NCBI GenBank assembly: GCA_001817915.1
Contig: MHJJ01000014.1
Coordinates: forward strand, 3,695 to 67,694
Origin: Candidatus Harrisonbacteria bacterium RIFCSPLOWO2_01_FULL_44_18
GTDB taxonomy: Bacteria; Patescibacteriota; Minisyncoccia; UBA6257; WO2-44-18
Reading direction: 5' to 3'
DNA: 64,000 nt
Within the stretch, counting starts at the first letter, position 1. Every line of letters starts with the position of its first letter. The notes below the pieces were generated by a model. That model ran no database searches and was not told the DNA's origin. It worked only from the letters and a program-made list of their open reading frames with translations. Position numbers and translations under genes: made by a program. Below are positions 21,425 through 63,553 of this stretch, one piece after another.

Positions 21425-21667
21425 TGGACCTAGCCAGAATCCCCTGCCTGCCGGCAGGCAGGGAACTGGCGTTTCCTCATTGTCCCGACAGCAAAGGTGG
21501 ACCCAAGGAGATTCGAACTCCTGACCTCCACATTGCAAATGTGGCGCTCTAGCCAACTGAGCTATGGGCCCACCTTTACTGTCGTGGATCCTCGACTTCA
21601 TTTTATTATATTTTTTAAAAAAGTGCGTCGGGACAAATGAGGTGTTCTGCCACTGAACTATAGGCCC
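21425..21667 (-). tRNA. interrupted tRNA-Ala(UGC)-like gene with 151-nt insert that contains the intact tRNA-Ala
   Basis: 5' exon 21634-21667: GGGCCTA TA GTTC AGTGGCA GAAC A CCTCA TTTG. 3' exon 21425-21482: CAA TGAGG AAAC GCCAG TTC[22-nt palindrome]GATT CTGGC TAGGTCC A. The acceptor stem pairs with G3:U70. The anticodon loop reads TTTGCAA once the insert is removed. The insert is bounded by 7-bp inverted repeats TCCCGAC/GTCGGGA. Confidence 0.45.
21498..21571 (-). tRNA. tRNA-Ala (anticodon UGC)
   Basis: GGGCCCATAGCTCAGTTGGCTAGAGCGCCACATTTGCAATGTGGAGGTCAGGAGTTCGAATCTCCTTGGGTCCA. G3:U70 Ala identity pair, anticodon loop TTTGCAA. No encoded CCA. Confidence 0.85.
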
Positions 21668-21890
21668 GCCCACTTGATTTATATTATTCGATTGTTTGGA
21701 TTTTCGCCAGACTTTGTTTGCCAATAAAATCTAACGGTTCAACGCGTTGAACCATTAGAGTTTTTTGATTCCTCAACATAATATTTATATTTCTAAACTA
21801 GTTATGCGCGGCATAAAGGAACCGGCGTCAAATACTTCGGGCTTCGGCGAGGCGAAGCTTGCTTACGCTAAAGCTTTGACGAAGCGAATG

Positions 21891-21977
21891 CGGAGACGGG
21901 AGGATTCGAACCTCCGATGCCCTTTCGGGCATACCGCATTTCGAGTGCGGCCCATTCAACCACTCTGGCACGTCTCC
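21891..21977 (-). tRNA. tRNA-Ser (anticodon CGA), type II
   Basis: GGAGACG...CCGCA CTCGAAA TGCGG..., long variable arm TATGCCCGAAAGGGCATC, T-arm GGAGGTTCGAATCCTCC, acceptor 3' strand CGTCTCC, discriminator G. Confidence 0.85.
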
Positions 21978-21979
21978 AA

Positions 21980-22159
21980 TGCCCTCGGGAAGAATCGAAC
22001 CTCCATCCGCGCGTTAGGAGTGCGCTGTTCCCCGCCTGCCATCGCTTGTGCCCCCAGAAAGAATCGAACTCTCATCTTTCCCTTAGGACGGGATTGCTCG
22101 GTCCATTGAGCTATGGGGGCTCAGGCCATGGCGGGCAGTATCCATTGAACTACGAGGGC
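21980..22159 (-). tRNA. interrupted tRNA-Arg(CCU)-like gene with 108-nt insert in the D-loop containing the intact tRNA-Arg
   Basis: 5' exon 22139-22159: GCCCTCG TA GTTC AATGGATA. 3' exon 21980-22030: GAAC A GCGCA CTCCTAA CGCGC GGAT GGAGG TTCGATT CTTCC CGAGGGC A. Acceptor and D stems are perfectly complementary across the insert. The insert is flanked by CCCGCC/GGCGGG. Confidence 0.45.
22049..22120 (-). tRNA. tRNA-Arg (anticodon CCU)
   Basis: GCCCCCA TA GCTC AATGGACC GAGC A ATCCC GTCCTAA GGGAA AGAT GAGAG TTCGATT CTTTC TGGGGGC A. Confidence 0.75.
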
Positions 22160-22167
22160 ACGCAATT

Positions 22168-22196
22168 ATTATATTCGATCTTCGGCAACTTGACAA
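22168..22196 (-). promoter_or_regulatory. promoter of the minus-strand tRNA operon (TTGTCA-17-TATAAT)
   Basis: Minus strand reads TTGTCAAGTTGCCGAAGATCGAATATAAT, 8 nt upstream of the first tRNA-like 5' end at 22159. Confidence 0.5.
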
Positions 22197-22217
22197 ATTA
22201 TGTAGACCTGCTATAAT
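22190..22217 (+). promoter_or_regulatory. divergent promoter (TTGACA-16-TATAAT) for the 22259 gene
   Basis: TTGACAAATTatgtagacctgcTATAAT. Its -35 hexamer overlaps the -35 of the opposing tRNA promoter. Confidence 0.5.
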
Positions 22218-25559: not shown

Positions 25560-25592
25560 GGAAGCGTTGCAGAGTGGACGAATGCACCATTT
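25560..25592 (+). pseudogene. tRNA-Ser 5' fragment (acceptor + D arm duplicate)
   Basis: GGAAGCGTTGCAGAGTGGACGAATGCACC aligns to the first about 30 nt of the adjacent tRNA-Ser. No matching 3' half was found. Confidence 0.4.
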
Positions 25593-25607
25593 GGCTCTAT
25601 TCAAAGC

Positions 25608-25694
25608 GGAGGGTTGGCAGAGTGGTCTAACGCGCCGCACTTGAAATGCGGTTTCCCGGAAACGGGATCACAGGTTCGAATCCTGTACCCTCCG
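25608..25694 (+). tRNA. tRNA-Ser (anticodon UGA), type II
   Basis: Acceptor GGAGGGT/ACCCTCC, anticodon arm CCGCA CTTGAAA TGCGG, long variable arm, T-arm ACAGGTTCGAATCCTGT. Flanked by 12-bp inverted repeats tctattcaaagc/gctttgaataga. Confidence 0.85.
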
Positions 25695-25768
25695 CTTTGA
25701 ATAGAAACTTGTCCTCCGAAGGAGGATCCGCCTCCGGTGGAAAATGCGGTATCGCAACCAAAAAGAAA

Positions 25769-51557: not shown

Positions 51558-51623
51558 GCGATGAACAGGGCCCAGCCGTAATTTCAAAACACCCTAACGG
51601 GTGCTTTTTGTTTCAGCAGTCTG

Positions 51624-51698
51624 CGCGGGCGGCCGGATTTGAACCGGTGACCTTCCGCGTGACAGGCGGACGCTCTAACCAGACTGAGCTACGCCCGC
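51624..51698 (-). tRNA. tRNA-Asp (anticodon GUC)
   Basis: GCGGGCG TA GCTC AGTCTGGTTA GAGC G TCCGC CTGTCAC GCGGA AGGTC ACCGG TTCAAAT CCGGC CGCCCGC G. The flanks extend the acceptor helix by 4 bp (CTGC/GCAG). Confidence 0.85.
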
Positions 51699-51728
51699 GC
51701 AGATTGCTGGAATACCTTTGTTAATATA

Positions 51729-60319: not shown

Positions 60320-63300
60320 ATGGCTAAAACAAAAGCAAAAAAAGCGAGTAAAAATGAGGAGAAACAGCCTTCTTATACTGCCAAAGACATTTATGTTTTG
60401 GAAGGATTGGAGCCGGTTCGAAAGCGGCCGGGGATGTATATTGGCACAACTGATGTTGCTGGCCTACACCACCTAATTTATGAAGTCGTTGATAATTCAA
60501 TTGACGAGGCGATGGCCGGATACGCGAAAAATATTCAAGTTGAGTTTTTGCCGGGCAATCGGATAGCGGTAACCGATGATGGCCGCGGCATTCCGGTAGA
60601 GATTCATAAACAAACCAAAAAATCCGCGCTTGAAACCGTGATGACAACTTTGCATGCCGGAGGGAAATTTGGCGGCGAATCTTATAAAGTCTCCGGCGGC
60701 TTGCATGGCGTCGGCGTTTCGGTAGTTTGCGCCCTCTCAAAGTGGATGAAAGCGGAGGTTTGCCGCGATAAAGGACTTTATGTTCAAGAATATGAGCGCG
60801 GTAAACCGCAATATAAAGTTAAAAAAATAGCAAAGTGCGATAGTACCGGCACTAAAGTAACTTTTGAGCCGGATCCGGAAATTTTTAAAACGATTGAATT
60901 CGACCGCAAGCGCGTCTTGGATCATTTGCGCCAGCAAGCTTTTCTTACTAAAGGCGCAAGAATCGAAGTCATCGATATTCGCGAAAAAACGCCTTTTTAC
61001 CACGCCTTCTATTTTGACGGCGGACTTTTATCATTTATCAAATTTCTTAACCGCAGCGAAAAACCGCTGCAAGAGACGCCTTTTTACATTAATAAAACCT
61101 CGGAGGGCGTGGAGGTTGAGGCGGTTTTTACTTATAATAACGAATTGGAAATTCAGGAATTGAGCTTTGCCAATAATATTTATACTCCTGATGGCGGGAT
61201 GCATTTGACCGGTTTTCGTTCGGCCTTAACCCGCACTTTAAATGATTATGCTCGCGGCAACGATTATGTTAAAAAAGATGAAGATAATTTGACTGGTGAT
61301 GATGTGAGGGAGGGTCTTGTTGCCATTGTTTCGGTGAAAATTCGCGAGCCGCAATTTGAAGGCCAGACTAAGGCAAGGTTAGGAAATTCTGAAGCCAGGA
61401 CGGCGGTTGAGGGCGTTATCGGTGAAGCGCTTAAGGAATTTTTGGAAAGAAATTCTGTCGATGCCAGGCGTATCATGGAAAAATGCCTGTTGGCCGCTAA
61501 GGCCAGGAAAGCGGCTAAAGCGGCGAAAGAAACCGTGCTACGCAAGGGGATTTTAGAAGGATTAACTCTGCCCGGAAAATTAGCCGATTGTAGTTCAAGA
61601 AACCCCGAAGAATCGGAGTTGTTTATCGTGGAAGGAGATAGCGCCGGTGGGTGTTTTTTCGGTGAAACAAAAGTAGCTTTATTAGATGGAAGGAATATCT
61701 CGTTTAAAGATTTAGTTGAGGAAGAAAAAAAAGGAAAGAAAAATTTTTGTTATACCATAAAAAAAGATGGCCATATTGGCGTTGCTCCTATTTTAAATCC
61801 AAGAATAACCAGGCAGAATGCTAAAGTGGCTAAGGTTATTTTGGATAATGGTCAAGAAATTATATGTACGCCAGGTCATAAGTTTATGCTTAGAGATGGC
61901 ACTTTTAGAGAGGCCAAAGATTTAAATTGCAGAGATTCTTTAATGCCTTTATATCGAAAAAAATCGGAGATTGGAGGGCGAATAACAATTGATGGGTATG
62001 AAATGGTCTACAATCCTAAAGAAAATTTTTGGAGGTTTACTCATGTTTTATCAGATGGGCTTAATTTAGAAAATAAAACGTATTTTGAAACTAATGGACC
62101 ACAAAGGCACCATAAAGATTTTAATAAATTAAATAATAATCCGAATAATATTACCCGACTATCCAAAGAAGATCATTTTAGAATCCATCAAGAAATTGCC
62201 CTGACCGTATTGAGAAGCCCAGAGGTTTTAGAAAAATTAAGGAAAATAAGGCAATCCCCCGAATATAGAAATAGGATAAGCAAAAAAATGCGCGAGCCCA
62301 GAATGAGAGCCATACTTAGCGAAAGAGCCAAAAAACAATGGGAAAACGAGAATTATAAAAAATTTATGGCTCAGAAGTTTTTAGGATTTTATAAAAATAA
62401 TGAGGAATACAGAAATAAAAATAAAAAATTACTGTACAAAAGCCAGATGGAGTATTGGAACAACGAAGACAACAGAAAGAAACAAGCCGAAAGGGTTAGA
62501 AATTATTTCCATAAAAATTTAGTCATAAGGTCTTGGCTTTCTCAAATCGCGAAACAGCAGTGGGATGATTCAGCTCTAATAAAATGGAGGGCGAACAAAA
62601 CCAAAGAACAATGGACTCAAGCATTTAGAATTAAAAGGAGCATGGCTTATAGCAAGACATATAAAGAGAAGGCCCTGAAATTGCTAAAAGAACTTTTTGA
62701 TGGAAATGGGAAAATTGAAAAAGGAGAATATACACGGGAAAGACTTATTAGAAAAGACAAATCTATCCTTAGATATGAAACCATTTGTGAAAGATTTTTT
62801 GATAGTGATGAAAATAAATTGAAAGAAGCCGTAATAAATTACAATCATAAAATTAAAGCAGTGATTCCATTAGAAGAAAAGATGGACGTATACGATATAG
62901 AGGTTCCCAATACTCACAATTTTGCTCTTGCTTCTGGAGTTTTTGTTCATAATAGTAGTAAGCAAGGACGTGACCGGCGAACTCAAGCAATTCTTCCGCT
63001 TAAGGGCAAGATTTTGAATGTGGAAAAATCAAGGATTGATAAAATGCTTTTGAACAAAGAGATTAAAGCGTTAGTGGTTGCCATAGGAACGGCGATAGCC
63101 GAGTCGTTCGATATCAATAAATTGCGCTACCATAAAGTGATTTTAATGACTGACGCCGATGTTGACGGATCGCATATCCGGACTTTGCTTTTGACTCTTT
63201 TTTATCGCTACTTTCCCCAAATTATTGACGAAGGCCATCTTTACATCGCCCAACCCCCGCTTTATCGCGTTCAAAAAGGCAAAGAAATAAGCTATATTTA

Positions 63301-63553
63301 CAGAGAAGAAGAAAGAGAAAAATTACCGAAAGAGGGGATTAATTTACAGCGCTATAAAGGTCTTGGCGAAATGAATCCGGAACAGCTTTGGGAAACGACC
63401 ATGGATCCGGCCAAAAGAGCATTGAGGATAGTGAAGGTGGATGATGTCGAAGAGGCTGATAGAATGTTTGATGTTTTGATGGGTGAAGACGTTGAGCCGA
63501 GGAAAAATTTTATACAAGCCCACGCTCTTTCAGTTAAAAACTTCGATATATAA
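60320..63553 (+). CDS. gyrB: DNA gyrase subunit B containing an intein
   Basis: Exteins total 643 aa with GyrB ATPase and Toprim blocks (HAGGKFGG, EGDSAGG|S.KQGRDR, MTDADVDGSHI). A 434-aa insertion sits between GG and S. Confidence 0.9.
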   Translation: MAKTKAKKASKNEEKQPSYTAKDIYVLEGLEPVRKRPGMYIGTTDVAGLHHLIYEVVDNSIDEAMAGYAKNIQVEFLPGNRIAVTDDGRGIPVEIHKQTKKSALETVMTTLHAGGKFGGESYKVSGGLHGVGVSVVCALSKWMKAEVCRDKGLYVQEYERGKPQYKVKKIAKCDSTGTKVTFEPDPEIFKTIEFDRKRVLDHLRQQAFLTKGARIEVIDIREKTPFYHAFYFDGGLLSFIKFLNRSEKPLQETPFYINKTSEGVEVEAVFTYNNELEIQELSFANNIYTPDGGMHLTGFRSALTRTLNDYARGNDYVKKDEDNLTGDDVREGLVAIVSVKIREPQFEGQTKARLGNSEARTAVEGVIGEALKEFLERNSVDARRIMEKCLLAAKARKAAKAAKETVLRKGILEGLTLPGKLADCSSRNPEESELFIVEGDSAGGCFFGETKVALLDGRNISFKDLVEEEKKGKKNFCYTIKKDGHIGVAPILNPRITRQNAKVAKVILDNGQEIICTPGHKFMLRDGTFREAKDLNCRDSLMPLYRKKSEIGGRITIDGYEMVYNPKENFWRFTHVLSDGLNLENKTYFETNGPQRHHKDFNKLNNNPNNITRLSKEDHFRIHQEIALTVLRSPEVLEKLRKIRQSPEYRNRISKKMREPRMRAILSERAKKQWENENYKKFMAQKFLGFYKNNEEYRNKNKKLLYKSQMEYWNNEDNRKKQAERVRNYFHKNLVIRSWLSQIAKQQWDDSALIKWRANKTKEQWTQAFRIKRSMAYSKTYKEKALKLLKELFDGNGKIEKGEYTRERLIRKDKSILRYETICERFFDSDENKLKEAVINYNHKIKAVIPLEEKMDVYDIEVPNTHNFALASGVFVHNSSKQGRDRRTQAILPLKGKILNVEKSRIDKMLLNKEIKALVVAIGTAIAESFDINKLRYHKVILMTDADVDGSHIRTLLLTLFYRYFPQIIDEGHLYIAQPPLYRVQKGKEISYIYREEEREKLPKEGINLQRYKGLGEMNPEQLWETTMDPAKRALRIVKVDDVEEADRMFDVLMGEDVEPRKNFIQAHALSVKNFDI
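61652..62953 (+). mobile_element. GyrB intein with HNH-type homing endonuclease domain
   Basis: Begins Cys (CFFGETKVALLDG, block A), block B ICTPGHKF, and ends VFVHN with S as the +1 residue. Central HH...N...N...H motif (RHHKDFNKLNNNPNNITRLSKEDHFRIH). Composition is AT-richer than the exteins. Confidence 0.8.

What the first reader, a model, noticed from the sequence alone, without database searches (positions are those of the whole stretch)
21980..22159. Second nested-tRNA locus: tRNA-Arg(CCU) inside a D-loop insert of another tRNA-Arg(CCU)-like gene
Minus strand 22139-22159 reads GCCCTCG TA GTTC AATGGATA (acceptor 5' strand, U8/A9, D-stem 5' strand, D-loop). 108 nt downstream, 21980-22030 reads GAAC A GCGCA CTCCTAA CGCGC GGAT GGAGG TTCGATT CTTCC CGAGGGC A. 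That is the complementary D-stem 3' strand, a complete anticodon arm with anticodon CCU, a T arm, and an acceptor 3' strand perfectly complementary to GCCCTCG.

The insert consists of 18-nt flanks that pair (CCCGCC/GGCGGG) and a complete 72-nt tRNA-Arg(CCU) at 22049-22120. This is the same architecture as the Ala locus, about 400 bp away in one minus-strand tRNA operon (promoter at 22168-22196, with tRNA-Ser(CGA) in between). That argues for a systematic mechanism: a tRNA-carrying insertion element, or a split/permuted pre-tRNA processing pathway.

In both loci the outer and inner genes share the anticodon but differ in sequence, so simple tandem duplication is unlikely.
Basis: seen in the sequence. 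Interest (0 to 1): 0.9.

Follow-up and report, generated by a model that had tools for sequence, protein, structure and literature searches.

The report
Mobile tRNA cassette nested inside tRNA
A bacterial tRNA-Arg gene is split exactly in its D-loop by a 108-base hairpin-ended insert carrying a second complete tRNA-Arg; the same insert occurs in seven other lineages but not in close relatives, so it looks like a previously undescribed mobile element.

Summary
On the minus strand, 22159-22139 plus 22030-21980 join into a 72-nt tRNA-Arg(CCU). The 108 nt between them hold a second complete tRNA-Arg(CCU) at 22120-22049.

It is not chance, an assembly artefact or a private oddity. Seven other Patescibacteria contigs have the same architecture at the same position. 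Their 10-nt insert ends are invariant (CCTGCCCGCC...GGCAGGCGGG), while both tRNAs vary with compensatory changes.

Two sister comparisons show the same gene uninterrupted: window vs L128, and L116 vs L132. In the second pair, 71 of 72 nt match the joined outer gene. The outer gene is therefore the resident tRNA, and the insert is a precisely bounded, site-specific cassette that comes and goes.

Related nestings of the same anticodon occur for Ala(UGC) and Ser(UGA) in this window, Ser(CGA) in L128 and Arg(CCG) in L102. Several of their outer genes are decayed.

Best reading (about 55%): a non-coding mobile cassette whose tRNA cargo replaces the gene it interrupts. The cargo is released by ordinary tRNA end-processing, and the outer halves are a relic.

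Main rival (about 25%): a new enzyme-spliced bacterial tRNA intron.

It is not a group I intron, a bulge-helix-bulge (BHB) intron, or a split or permuted tRNA. I found nothing like it in Rfam or the searchable literature.

The parts
22168..22196 (-). Sigma-70-like promoter of the operon (TTGTCA, 17-nt spacer, TATAAT). It ends 8 nt before outer exon 1.
   Evidence: Consensus scan, 11 of 12 matches. The same promoter precedes the uninterrupted ortholog in L128.
22139..22159 (-). Outer (resident) tRNA-Arg(CCU), 5' piece: acceptor 5' strand, U8/A9, D-stem 5' strand and D loop (nt 1-21).
   Evidence: Positions 1-15 are identical to the uninterrupted tRNA-Arg of L128.
22031..22138 (-). 108-nt cassette inserted between nt 21 and 22 of the outer gene. 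It has no target duplication or deletion.
   Evidence: Same-position inserts of 107-110 nt occur in L097, L100, L102, L104, L113, L115, L116 and L127. Empty sites occur in L128 and L132.
22130..22138 (-). 5' terminal motif CTGCCCGCC. The family consensus is CCTGCCCGCC; the first C is missing here.
   Evidence: Invariant in 8 of 8 loci apart from this 1-nt deletion (alignment A3).
22121..22129 (-). 5' linker ATGGCCTGA, which pairs imperfectly with the 3' linker.
   Evidence: Variable among loci, with weak covariation.
22049..22120 (-). Inner (cargo) tRNA-Arg(CCU), 72 nt, complete and uninterrupted.
   Evidence: ARAGORN. Rfam RF00005 55.2 bits. Across the 8 inner genes, 95.8% of stem cells are paired and 11 of 21 pairs covary.
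22041..22048 (-). 3' linker CAAGCGAT.
22031..22040 (-). 3' terminal motif GGCAGGCGGG. With the 5' motif it forms a 10-bp basal helix carrying a fixed U.G and a fixed C.A.
   Evidence: Invariant in 8 of 8 loci. Pair 24:128 is UG in 8 of 8; pair 28:124 is non-standard in 8 of 8, and reads as C.A from the invariant motifs.
21980..22030 (-). Outer tRNA-Arg(CCU), 3' piece: D-stem 3' strand, anticodon arm (CCU), variable loop, T arm, acceptor 3' strand and A73.
   Evidence: Weak stand-alone Rfam tRNA hit of 16.1 bits. Positions 59-72 are identical to the L128 gene.
21890..21977 (-). tRNA-Ser(CGA), uninterrupted here and next in the operon. Its ortholog in L128 is the one that is interrupted.
21730..21759 (-). 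Terminator-like hairpin plus T run that closes the Arg-Ser unit.
21425..21667 (-). Related locus. The resident tRNA-Ala(UGC) lies in three pieces (21667-21634, 21482-21463, 21441-21425). A 151-nt insert in the anticodon loop carries tRNA-Ala(UGC) at 21571-21496. A 21-nt palindromic insert sits in the T loop (21462-21442).
   Evidence: The joined pieces give a 71-nt tRNA-Ala(tgc) with G3:U70. The acceptor 5' strand GGGCCTA equals that of L128's uninterrupted Ala(UGC).
25560..25759 (+). Related, older locus. tRNA-Ser(UGA) at 25608-25695 has an 11-bp leader/trailer helix. It lies between decayed remains of a resident Ser(UGA) gene (25560-25584 and about 25743-25752).
   Evidence: 20 of 25 identity to the 5' part of L005's Ser(UGA), above all 300 shuffles. 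The 3' remnant AAATGCGGTA is weaker (4 of 300 shuffles as high).

Best explanation
The locus is the resident tRNA-Arg(CCU) gene of a Candidatus Harrisonbacteria (Patescibacteria) genome. It is split exactly between nucleotide 21 (last D-loop base) and 22 (first base of the 3' D-stem strand) by a 108-bp non-coding cassette that carries its own complete tRNA-Arg(CCU).

SHOWN:
- The cassette belongs to a family of 107-110 bp. Each member has invariant 10-nt ends CCTGCCCGCC / GGCAGGCGGG, variable 7-9-nt linkers and a tRNA-Arg(CCU) cargo.
- The family sits at the same position of otherwise divergent tRNA-Arg(CCU) genes in at least seven other lineages.
- Close relatives of two occupied genomes have the same gene uninterrupted, with no duplication or loss at the site.
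- The outer gene is the ortholog of the uninterrupted gene.

INFERRED:
- The cassette is a site-specific mobile insertion moved by an enzyme encoded elsewhere and not yet identified.
- The whole 180 nt is transcribed from the resident promoter.
- The ends and linkers pair into a roughly 18-bp leader-trailer helix under the inner acceptor stem.
- The inner tRNA is cut out by ordinary tRNA end-processing: RNase P and RNase Z or exonucleases, possibly after RNase III opens the helix. It then serves as the cell's tRNA-Arg(CCU).
- The two outer pieces are an inactivated gene that the cargo replaces and that decays with time.
- Carrying a tRNA of the same anticodon is what makes the insertion harmless, and so lets it persist and spread.
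For: Presence and absence with exact boundaries:
- L132's uninterrupted tRNA-Arg matches L116's joined outer gene at 71 of 72 nt. Their neighbouring protein is 87% identical.
- L128 shares the window's promoter and M50/orf153 synteny; its orf153 is 79% identical. It has an uninterrupted Arg that matches the window's outer gene at 60 of 72 nt, with an identical acceptor. It matches the inner gene at only 54 of 72.
- L137 is also uninterrupted at the syntenic site.

A family under selection on its ends:
- Eight loci share invariant termini while linkers and both tRNAs vary.
- The search pattern did not include the termini.

The element's history differs from the host's:
- Window and L116 inner genes are 0.81 identical, but their outer genes only 0.50.
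- The inner Ser of L128 resembles the resident Ser of L137 and L116, not the outer Ser.

Outer genes can be dead:
- L128's outer Ser lacks 7 nt (G24-C30).
- The window's Ser(UGA) outer gene has lost its variable and T arms.
- In L113, layer 3 has lost its 3' piece. L127 has a decayed outer gene and decayed cargo next to an intact gene.
- Outer genes collect further hairpin inserts: the Ala T loop and L115 layer 3.

Other points:
- Every interrupted gene seen has an intact copy with the same anticodon inside it or beside it.
- Re-invasion of cargo produces three-layer nests in L113 and L115.
- A hairpin with the same ends and linkers but no cargo exists elsewhere (L142/L149).
Against: - No transposase, integrase or homing endonuclease was found in the 49 window ORFs scanned.
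- There is no target-site duplication, and only one copy sits in 64 kb, unlike typical MITEs or REPs.
- How a 108-bp element finds the gene of its own anticodon is unexplained.
- The outer genes of the eight Arg loci are as well paired as the inner ones (95.2% vs 95.8% of stem cells). Part of that is ascertainment, because the search pattern required an intact D arm and anticodon loop.
- L116's outer gene shows no decay relative to L132.
- The window's outer gene differs from L128's at 12 positions yet keeps its stems.
- Inserts lie at loop or loop-edge positions. That would also fit a requirement that the outer RNA stays usable.
- The invariant ends could be an RNA-level recognition site rather than a DNA-level one.
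Confidence: 0.55

Rival explanations
1. The insert is a new class of bacterial tRNA intervening sequence removed at the RNA level by proteins. An endonuclease would recognise the conserved 10-bp basal helix, with its fixed U.G and C.A, and cut flush at both junctions. A ligase would then join the exons. RNase P and RNase Z would free the inner tRNA from the excised intron, so one precursor yields two tRNA-Arg(CCU). The element would be mobile in the way other introns are.
For: - The exons are preserved to the base. The joined outer gene is a perfect tRNA and matches an uninterrupted gene at 71 of 72 nt.
- Outer stems, including the acceptor stem formed across the insert, covary in 14 of 21 pairs with 95.2% of cells paired.
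- Several inserts in one gene still leave intact exons: Ala, L115 layer 3 and L102 Arg(CCG).
- Inserts sit in or at the edge of loops.
- The termini are conserved in sequence, not only in pairing.
Against: - The junctions are not a bulge-helix-bulge. Both lie flush at the base of one continuous helix.
- No ribozyme or intron family matches, and 108 nt with 72 nt taken up by a tRNA leaves no room for a group I core.
- No RtcB-like or EndA-like gene lies in the window, though the window is only part of the genome (64 kb of a contig of at least 93 kb).
- If splicing worked, the cargo would be unnecessary, yet every such insert carries or once carried a tRNA of the same anticodon.
- Some outer genes cannot be rejoined into a tRNA, for example L128's Ser with its 7-nt loss.
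- Covariation among outer genes may predate independent insertions.
Confidence: 0.25
2. The outer gene works as a two-piece (fragmented) tRNA without ligation. After the inner tRNA is cut out, the 5' 21-mer and the 3' 51-mer stay together through the acceptor stem, the D stem and what remains of the flank helix. This would resemble fragmented rRNAs whose intervening sequences are removed by RNase III.
For: - Only known bacterial enzymes are needed.
- The break lies at the D-loop/D-stem boundary, so the anticodon, T arm and acceptor stay intact.
- The exon 1-exon 2 acceptor pairing covaries in 6 of 7 pairs.
Against: - This cannot apply to the sister loci, where the break is inside the anticodon loop: Ala 35/36, Arg(CCG) 36/37 and L115 layer 3 at 32/33.
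- It also cannot apply to inserts in the T loop.
- To my knowledge no natural two-piece bacterial tRNA is known.
- The objection that the cargo is always present applies here too.
Confidence: 0.07
3. The nesting is an old, vertically inherited local rearrangement or duplication of tRNA-Arg(CCU), kept similar by gene conversion. On this reading it is not a mobile element, and relatives without it lost it.
For: - Inner and outer anticodon stems within a locus are more alike (0.72) than between loci (0.55).
- In L104 they are identical and in L113 nearly so. This shows exchange between the two copies.
Against: - Loss would have to be exact to the base, twice (L128, L132), without flanking direct repeats.
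- The inner and outer trees disagree.
- The same ends occur in distant lineages, and without cargo in unrelated contigs.
- Three-layer nests point to repeated insertion.
Confidence: 0.05
4. The pattern is chance complementarity or an assembly chimera.
For: None found.
Against: - Independent assemblies are identical, apart from one with a single-base difference.
- 0 of 3000 shuffles were called tRNA.
- Eight lineages share the architecture.
- Uninterrupted orthologs exist.
Confidence: 0.01

Closest known systems
Group I introns in bacterial tRNA genes, including those described in Patescibacteria (PMC13011429)
   Same: Both interrupt a bacterial tRNA gene precisely and show presence/absence between relatives. 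Both are frequent in the same phylum.
   Different: Group I introns are at least about 200 nt of self-splicing ribozyme and lie almost always in the anticodon loop. Here there are 108 nt, 72 of them a tRNA, in the D loop, with no Rfam intron hit. [quoted passage not shown]
Archaeal bulge-helix-bulge tRNA introns at non-canonical positions, and split, tri-split or permuted tRNAs (PMC3218864, PMC4033280, listed but not read; the details below are from my own knowledge)
   Same: Both involve inserts at D-loop, T-loop and anticodon-loop positions, several inserts per gene, and complementary flanks that bring the two halves together. From my own knowledge, such introns also appear to transpose between tRNA genes.
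   Different: There is no bulge-helix-bulge here. Both junctions are flush at the base of one helix. The organism is a bacterium: bacterial-type LeuRS, NAD-dependent DNA ligase and sigma-70-like promoters. The gene is collinear, and the insert holds a complete tRNA.
Integrative elements (phages, ICEs) that integrate into tRNA genes and carry a copy of the displaced tRNA segment (own knowledge)
   Same: The logic is the same: the element lands in a tRNA gene and brings the sequence needed to keep that tRNA available.
   Different: Those elements are kilobases long and encode an integrase. They duplicate only the 3' part of the tRNA as att repeats and leave one restored gene. Here the element is 108 bp and non-coding, carries a whole tRNA, and leaves both halves of the target around it.
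REP/REPIN elements and MITEs such as Correia or Rickettsia palindromic elements (own knowledge)
   Same: All are short, non-coding, hairpin-forming elements with inverted ends, mobilised in trans. They can sit inside genes, and their transcripts form RNase III-type helices.
   Different: Those families have tens to hundreds of copies per genome, usually carry no cargo and do not target a cognate gene. Many make target duplications. Here there is one copy per 64 kb, a tRNA cargo, a single target site and no duplication.
Intervening sequences of bacterial 23S/16S rRNA removed by RNase III without ligation (own knowledge)
   Same: In both, an extended helix replaces a loop of a structured RNA, and it varies between close relatives.
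   Different: Those sequences sit in rRNA and carry no gene. Function of the fragmented product is shown there but not here.
Archaeal tRNA-Trp intron that encodes a box C/D guide RNA (own knowledge)
   Same: A functional small RNA lies inside a tRNA intervening sequence.
   Different: That case is archaeal, spliced through a bulge-helix-bulge, and its cargo is a guide RNA rather than a second copy of the host tRNA.

Membership tests
Group I intron in a tRNA gene | Conserved P1-P9 ribozyme core, usually at least 200 nt, detectable with Rfam RF00028 | tested here: not met
   The insert is 108 nt, of which 72 nt are a tRNA. Rfam scans at gathering and E<=5 thresholds give only tRNA hits.
Group I intron in a tRNA gene | Insertion in the anticodon loop | tested here: not met
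   The insertion lies between nt 21 and 22, at the D-loop/D-stem boundary.
Bulge-helix-bulge (archaeal or eukaryal) tRNA intron | Splice sites in two 3-nt bulges separated by a 4-bp helix, with the start of the intron pairing to the start of the 3' exon | tested here: not met
   Both junctions lie flush at the base of a continuous 10-bp helix formed by the two intron ends. The 3' exon starts with GAAC, which pairs with the D-stem strand GTTC.
Bulge-helix-bulge (archaeal or eukaryal) tRNA intron | Host encodes a splicing endonuclease (EndA) and an RtcB-type ligase | tested here: inconclusive
   Neither appears among the 49 ORFs of the 64-kb window. The rest of the genome could not be searched.
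Split or permuted tRNA gene | Halves encoded at separate loci, or the 3' half placed upstream of the 5' half | tested here: not met
   The halves are collinear, 108 nt apart, behind one promoter.
MITE / non-autonomous DNA transposon | Terminal inverted repeats | tested here: met
   CCTGCCCGCC compared with the reverse complement of GGCAGGCGGG matches at 8 of 10 positions. Both ends are invariant in 8 loci.
MITE / non-autonomous DNA transposon | Target-site duplication | tested here: not met
   Comparing empty and occupied sites (L132 vs L116) shows no duplicated or lost base.
MITE / non-autonomous DNA transposon | Many dispersed copies per genome | tested here: not met
   The 64-kb window holds one full cassette and one 20-nt palindrome of similar sequence.
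MITE / non-autonomous DNA transposon | Presence/absence polymorphism between close relatives | tested here: met
   Window vs L128; L116 vs L132 and L137.
MITE / non-autonomous DNA transposon | A cognate transposase that acts in trans | not testable with these tools
   None is present in the window or the fetched flanks. Whole genomes were not available.
tRNA-targeting integrative element | Integrase gene plus direct repeats of the tRNA 3' segment (att sites) flanking kilobases of DNA | tested here: not met
   The insert is 108 bp, has no ORF and carries no direct repeat of the target.
RNase III-excised intervening sequence | Extended double-stranded helix emerging from a loop of the host RNA | tested here: met
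   An imperfect helix of about 18 bp stacks on the 7-bp inner acceptor stem. It is predicted independently by RNAfold (z = -4.1) and RNAalifold.
RNase III-excised intervening sequence | Removal from the mature RNA without religation, with the fragments remaining functional | not testable with these tools
   This requires RNA data.

The most novel reading that the evidence does not exclude
Patescibacteria possess an enzyme-catalysed, non-ribozyme tRNA splicing pathway. It would recognise a conserved 10-bp helix (CCUGCCCGCC/GGCAGGCGGG, with a fixed U.G and a fixed C.A), cut at both junctions and join the exons. The excised intron would then be matured into a second tRNA. That would be a third kind of tRNA intron, the first protein-dependent one in Bacteria, yielding two tRNAs from one nested gene.
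Probability: 0.2. Interest if true: 0.95.

Novelty: categorically new. Interest (0 to 1): 0.86.

Why it matters
If the main reading holds, this is a new kind of selfish DNA. It is a roughly 108-bp non-coding element that invades a tRNA gene and buys tolerance by carrying a replacement tRNA of the same anticodon. It spreads across deeply divergent lineages of the Candidate Phyla Radiation and stacks into three-layer nests.

- It would explain why tRNA genes in these genomes turn over so fast.
- It would expose a class of tRNA genes and relics that annotation tools miss.
- It raises a sharp question: how does so small an element find its cognate gene?

If the rival holds, Bacteria have a protein-dependent tRNA splicing system. 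That bears directly on the long-standing debate about the origin of tRNA introns and split tRNAs.

Either way the question is directly testable with tRNA sequencing or a simple heterologous expression experiment.

Tried and rejected
1. **Synteny through the downstream protease gene.** I scanned genome contigs and made four contig look-ups. Relatives at 77% identity or less do not keep the tRNA operon next to the protease, so this gave only distant uninterrupted tRNA-Arg genes (L001, L005). The upstream orf153 worked instead.

2. **A repeat family in the window.** I searched for CTGCCGGCAGG and CCKGCCTGCC. Only the Ala T-loop palindrome matched. My K code wrongly excluded the Arg termini.

3. 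**Bulge-helix-bulge reading of the junctions.** Rejected by inspection and by the predicted and consensus structures.

4. **Ribozyme or known RNA family.** Nothing beyond tRNA, apart from weak sub-threshold matches (several to the reverse complement of tRNAs).

5. **Defining the junction with ARAGORN.** It tolerates shifts of about 3 nt either way, so it is uninformative. The empty sites define the junction instead.

6. **Co-conversion.** The 12 differences between the window's outer gene and L128's Arg all lie in positions 16-58 (P = 0.0014). This cannot be polarised, because L128's Arg is 97% identical to that of the distant L137 and may itself have been replaced. L116 vs L132 shows no co-conversion.

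7. **Inner tRNAs as target-resistant variants.** None of the 8 inner genes has the exact 18-nt D arm of the invaded genes. However, L113 layer 3 was invaded with a variant D arm, so I keep this only as a hint.

8. **Phage vectors.** Two scans of viral contigs found no tRNA-bearing cassette. Hits were mostly chance matches in GC-rich DNA, plus the cargo-less hairpins in L142/L149.

9. **Splicing or mobility genes.** A Pfam scan of 49 window ORFs found none.

10. **Literature.** Six full-text searches found no description of a nested tRNA or of a non-group-I/II tRNA intervening sequence in bacteria.
Full report
**What is in the window.**

Reading the minus strand from 22196, the order is as follows.
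- A sigma-70-like promoter, TTGTCA-17-TATAAT, at 22196-22168.
- Eight bases later, GCCCTCG TA GTTC AATGGATA at 22159-22139.
- A 108-nt insert at 22138-22031.
- GAAC A GCGCA CUCCUAA CGCGC GGAU GGAGG UUCGAUU CUUCC CGAGGGC A at 22030-21980.
- tRNA-Ser(CGA) at 21977-21890, then a terminator-like hairpin at 21759-21730.

The two outer pieces join into a 72-nt RNA that ARAGORN calls tRNA-Arg(cct), with every stem paired except A31.C39.

The insert is built as CTGCCCGCC + ATGGCCTGA + a complete tRNA-Arg(CCU) + CAAGCGAT + GGCAGGCGGG. The inner tRNA lies at 22120-22049 and scores 55.2 bits against Rfam tRNA.

- Chance is excluded. None of 3000 shuffled flank pairs was called a tRNA. Of 18,230 equally spaced joins across the window, only this locus was.
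- Assembly error is excluded. Independent ENA and JGI assemblies carry the same 866-nt intergenic region with at most one difference. Shorter contigs, including a Logan one, match it over the part they cover.

**Which organism.**

The flanking protease and a small ORF are 100% identical to proteins named by NCBI as Candidatus Harrisonbacteria RIFCSPHIGHO2_01_FULL. Gene content is bacterial: bacterial-type LeuRS, NAD-dependent DNA ligase, type IV pilus genes and GyrB.

**The architecture is a family.**

I ran one metagenome scan for an Arg-type D arm followed 92-122 nt later by GAAC-N7-TCCTAA. It returned 35 loci.

Seven of them (L097, L100, L102, L104, L113, L115, L116) have exactly the window's design.
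- Outer exon 1 ends in AATGGATA and exon 2 starts with GAAC.
- The insert is 107-109 nt and runs CCTGCCCGCC + 7-9 nt + tRNA-Arg(CCU) + 8 nt + GGCAGGCGGG.
- ARAGORN calls tRNA-Arg(cct) for both the joined outer gene and the inner gene in all eight loci.

An eighth locus (L127) has the same ends, but both its cargo and its outer gene are decayed.

In the 181-column alignment the two 10-nt ends are invariant. The only exception is a 1-nt deletion in the window. The linkers and both tRNAs vary.

The ends were not part of the search pattern, so their constancy is not an artefact of how the loci were found.

They pair into a 10-bp helix with a fixed U.G at position 3 and a fixed C.A at position 7. 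The linkers extend it imperfectly to about 18 bp, directly under the inner acceptor stem. RNAfold (z = -4.1) and RNAalifold each predict a cloverleaf within a cloverleaf.

**Both tRNAs look like real tRNAs.**

| Set | Stem cells paired | Pairs with changes on both sides |
|---|---|---|
| 8 outer genes | 95.2% | 14 of 21 |
| 8 inner genes | 95.8% | 11 of 21 |

In the outer genes, 6 of the 7 acceptor pairs covary, and each of those pairs is formed across the insert.

One caveat applies. The search pattern fixed the outer D arm, GAAC and TCCTAA. Intact outer genes were therefore favoured, and their anticodon could not vary.

**The decisive comparisons: empty sites.**

*Window vs L128.* L128 is the closest relative I could find. 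Its orf153 is 79% identical, and it shares the M50-orf153 synteny and the promoter.
- At the same place it has an uninterrupted tRNA-Arg(CCU).
- That gene matches the window's outer gene at 60 of 72 positions, with an identical acceptor stem. It matches the inner gene at only 54 of 72.

*L116 vs L132.* L116 is Wolfebacteria-like. Its neighbour protein is 87% identical to that of L132.
- L132 has an uninterrupted tRNA-Arg(CCU) that matches L116's joined outer gene at 71 of 72 nt.
- The same 3-nt spacer and a tRNA-Ser(CGA) follow in both.

L137, whose neighbour protein is 71% identical, is also uninterrupted.

Three conclusions follow.
- The outer gene is the resident gene.
- The insert lies exactly between nt 21 and 22, with no duplicated or lost base.
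- Occupancy changes between close relatives.

Exact loss twice, without flanking direct repeats, is less likely than gain. I therefore read the insert as a site-specific mobile cassette.

Its history is not the host's. Window and L116 inner tRNAs are 0.81 identical, and their 5' linkers are identical. Their outer genes are only 0.50 identical.

**The phenomenon is broader than this family.**

In every case below, a tRNA sits with a paired leader and trailer inside a gene of the same anticodon.

| Locus | Nesting | State of the outer gene |
|---|---|---|
| Window 21667-21425 | Ala(UGC), insert in the anticodon loop at 35/36 | Joined pieces give a perfect tRNA-Ala with G3:U70; a further 21-nt palindromic insert sits in the T loop |
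| Window 25560-25759 | Ser(UGA) with an 11-bp leader/trailer helix | Decayed remains; the 5' relic is 20 of 25 identical to L005's Ser(UGA) |
| L128 | A foreign-type Ser(CGA) inside the ortholog of the window's intact Ser(CGA) | 7 nt missing |
| L102 | Arg(CCG) in the anticodon loop, ends in flipped orientation | Also carries a cargo-less hairpin at 21/22 |
| L113, L115 | Three nested layers of tRNA-Arg(CCU) | Outermost layer is the most damaged |

A cargo-less hairpin with the same ends and linkers occurs in IMG/VR contigs L142 and L149.

**How it most likely works.**

*Shown:*
- the anatomy of the locus;
- the family and its invariant ends;
- the empty sites in relatives;
- that the outer gene is the resident gene;
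- that some outer genes are decayed.

*Inferred:*
- The cassette is moved by an enzyme encoded elsewhere.
- It is transcribed from the host promoter.
- The leader-trailer helix and the inner cloverleaf are processed by RNase P and RNase Z or exonucleases, possibly after RNase III cleavage.
- The inner tRNA is the working tRNA-Arg(CCU).
- The outer halves are a relic.

Four observations argue for this reading over splicing.
- Cargo of the same anticodon is always present. A spliced intron would not need it.
- Some outer genes cannot be rejoined into a tRNA (L128's Ser).
- There is a gradient of decay. The Arg insertion in the window is recent and its outer gene is intact. The Ala outer gene is intact but has been hit again. 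The Ser(UGA) outer gene is decayed.
- Further hairpins accumulate in outer genes.

Four observations count against it.
- The Arg outer genes are in perfect condition.
- Inserts lie at loop or loop-edge positions.
- The ends are conserved in sequence, which could serve RNA recognition.
- I found no mobility gene, no target duplication, and no explanation for cognate targeting.

I put 0.55 on the replacement-cassette reading. I put 0.25 on a new protein-dependent tRNA intron, 0.07 on a functional two-piece tRNA and 0.05 on an old non-mobile rearrangement.

**Comparison with what is known.**

The locus fails the defining tests for each family I considered.
- Group I introns: wrong size, wrong position, no Rfam hit.
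- Bulge-helix-bulge introns: the junctions are flush at one helix.
- Split or permuted tRNAs: the gene is collinear.
- tRNA-targeting integrative elements: no integrase and no att repeats.
- Typical MITEs or REPs: no target duplication and only a single copy.

It works most like an integrative element that restores its tRNA target, shrunk to 108 bp. Structurally it resembles a REPIN-like hairpin with a tRNA at its tip.

The one paper on tRNA introns in this phylum reports only group I introns there, and elsewhere in bacteria a few group II. It states that only group I and II have been reported in bacteria (PMC13011429). Five further full-text searches found no nested tRNA.

I therefore rate it as lying outside the known kinds. 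One reservation applies: if a known transposase family turns out to move it, it would become a new variant of that kind.

Noticed in passing
window 21425-21667 (-): tRNA-Ala(UGC) is nested in the anticodon loop (35/36) of the resident tRNA-Ala(UGC). The flanks are unrelated to the Arg cassette (TCCCGAC...GTCGGGA). A 46-nt AT-rich stretch containing TATAAT sits inside the 5' flank. The three joined outer pieces form a perfect 71-nt tRNA-Ala with G3:U70.
   Followed up: partly
window 21442-21462 (-): A 21-nt GC-rich palindromic insert (CCTGCCTGCCGGCAGGCAGG+G) lies in the T loop (56/57) of the outer Ala gene. L127 has a near-identical insert at the same T-loop position of a tRNA-Arg. Both the D-loop and T-loop inserts of this type lie next to GTTC/GAAC.
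   Followed up: partly
window 25560-25759 (+): This looks like a third, older nested locus. tRNA-Ser(UGA) at 25608-25695 has an 11-bp leader/trailer helix (CTATTCAAAGC/GCTTTGAATAG). It sits between decayed remains of a resident Ser(UGA) gene; the 5' relic is 20 of 25 identical to L005's gene.
   Followed up: partly
window 51614-51709 (-): tRNA-Asp(GUC) is not nested, but it has an 11-bp leader/trailer helix (CAGCAATCTGC/GCAGACTGCTG) directly extending its acceptor stem. The nested cargo tRNAs have the same feature, which is unusual for bacterial pre-tRNAs.
   Followed up: no
window 60320-63553 (+): The GyrB gene is 1077 aa long with a Pfam Intein_splicing match at residues 454-878. This is an intein, another selfish element in the same genome.
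   Followed up: no
L128 1-520 (minus strand): In the closest relative the roles are swapped: Arg(CCU) and Ala(UGC) are uninterrupted but tRNA-Ser(CGA) is interrupted. Its cassette (flanks CCCCGCACAAAGC/GCTTTGTGCGGGG) carries a Ser(CGA) that resembles the resident Ser of L137 and L116. Seven nucleotides of the outer gene are missing. L001's normal Ser(CGA) has very similar leader and trailer sequences.
   Followed up: partly
L102 500-740 (+): tRNA-Arg(CCG) is nested at 36/37 of an Arg(CCG)-like outer gene. The CCTGCC-type ends are in flipped orientation (CCCGCCTGCC...GACGGGCAGG). The same outer gene has a cargo-less hairpin (CCCGCCCGC...GCGGGCGGG) at D-loop position 21/22.
   Followed up: partly
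L115 6720-7190 (+); L113 257-500 (-): These are three-layer nests of tRNA-Arg(CCU). In L115 the outermost layer has two extra D-arm hairpins and an anticodon-loop insert that holds the other two layers. In L113 the outermost layer has mutated ends and has lost its 3' piece.
   Followed up: partly
L096, L098, L107, L108, L093/L119, L121; also L094, L122, L095/L123, L101/L110, L124: Two other kinds of disrupted tRNA-Arg loci turned up. In one, a second copy carries 15-40-nt single or double hairpins after TAGTT in the D arm. In the other, a 5' fragment of the tRNA plus an insert is followed by a complete copy. An intact copy is adjacent in the loci examined, though the search pattern favoured two adjacent copies.
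   Followed up: no
L142 1575-1761 and L149 (IMG/VR contigs): Two tandem units of about 85 nt each contain a hairpin. The first, CCTGCCCGCC-AGTGCC/AGGCGAT-GGCAGGCGGG, has the ends and linkers of the Arg cassette without a tRNA; the second is a variant (CCTGCCCGC...GGCAGGCGGG). The contig has only weak phage-protein matches.
   Followed up: partly
L011 4116-4135; L098 2910-2929: The 20-nt palindrome CCTGCCTGCCGGCAGGCAGG also occurs outside tRNA genes in other Patescibacteria-like contigs. In L011 it lies among similar GC-rich hairpins.
   Followed up: no
L128 367-438 (-) vs L137 3562-3634 (-): The uninterrupted tRNA-Arg(CCU) genes of L128 (Harrisonbacteria-like) and L137 (Wolfebacteria-like) are 97% identical although the hosts are distant. 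In contrast, the neighbouring Ser(CGA) genes of the close pair L116 and L132 differ substantially. This suggests frequent exchange or replacement of tRNA genes between these lineages.
   Followed up: no
window 22168-22217: Two strong promoter-like sites overlap back to back: 22190-22217 (+), 12 of 12 matches, facing orf153; and 22196-22168 (-), 11 of 12, facing the tRNA operon.
   Followed up: no
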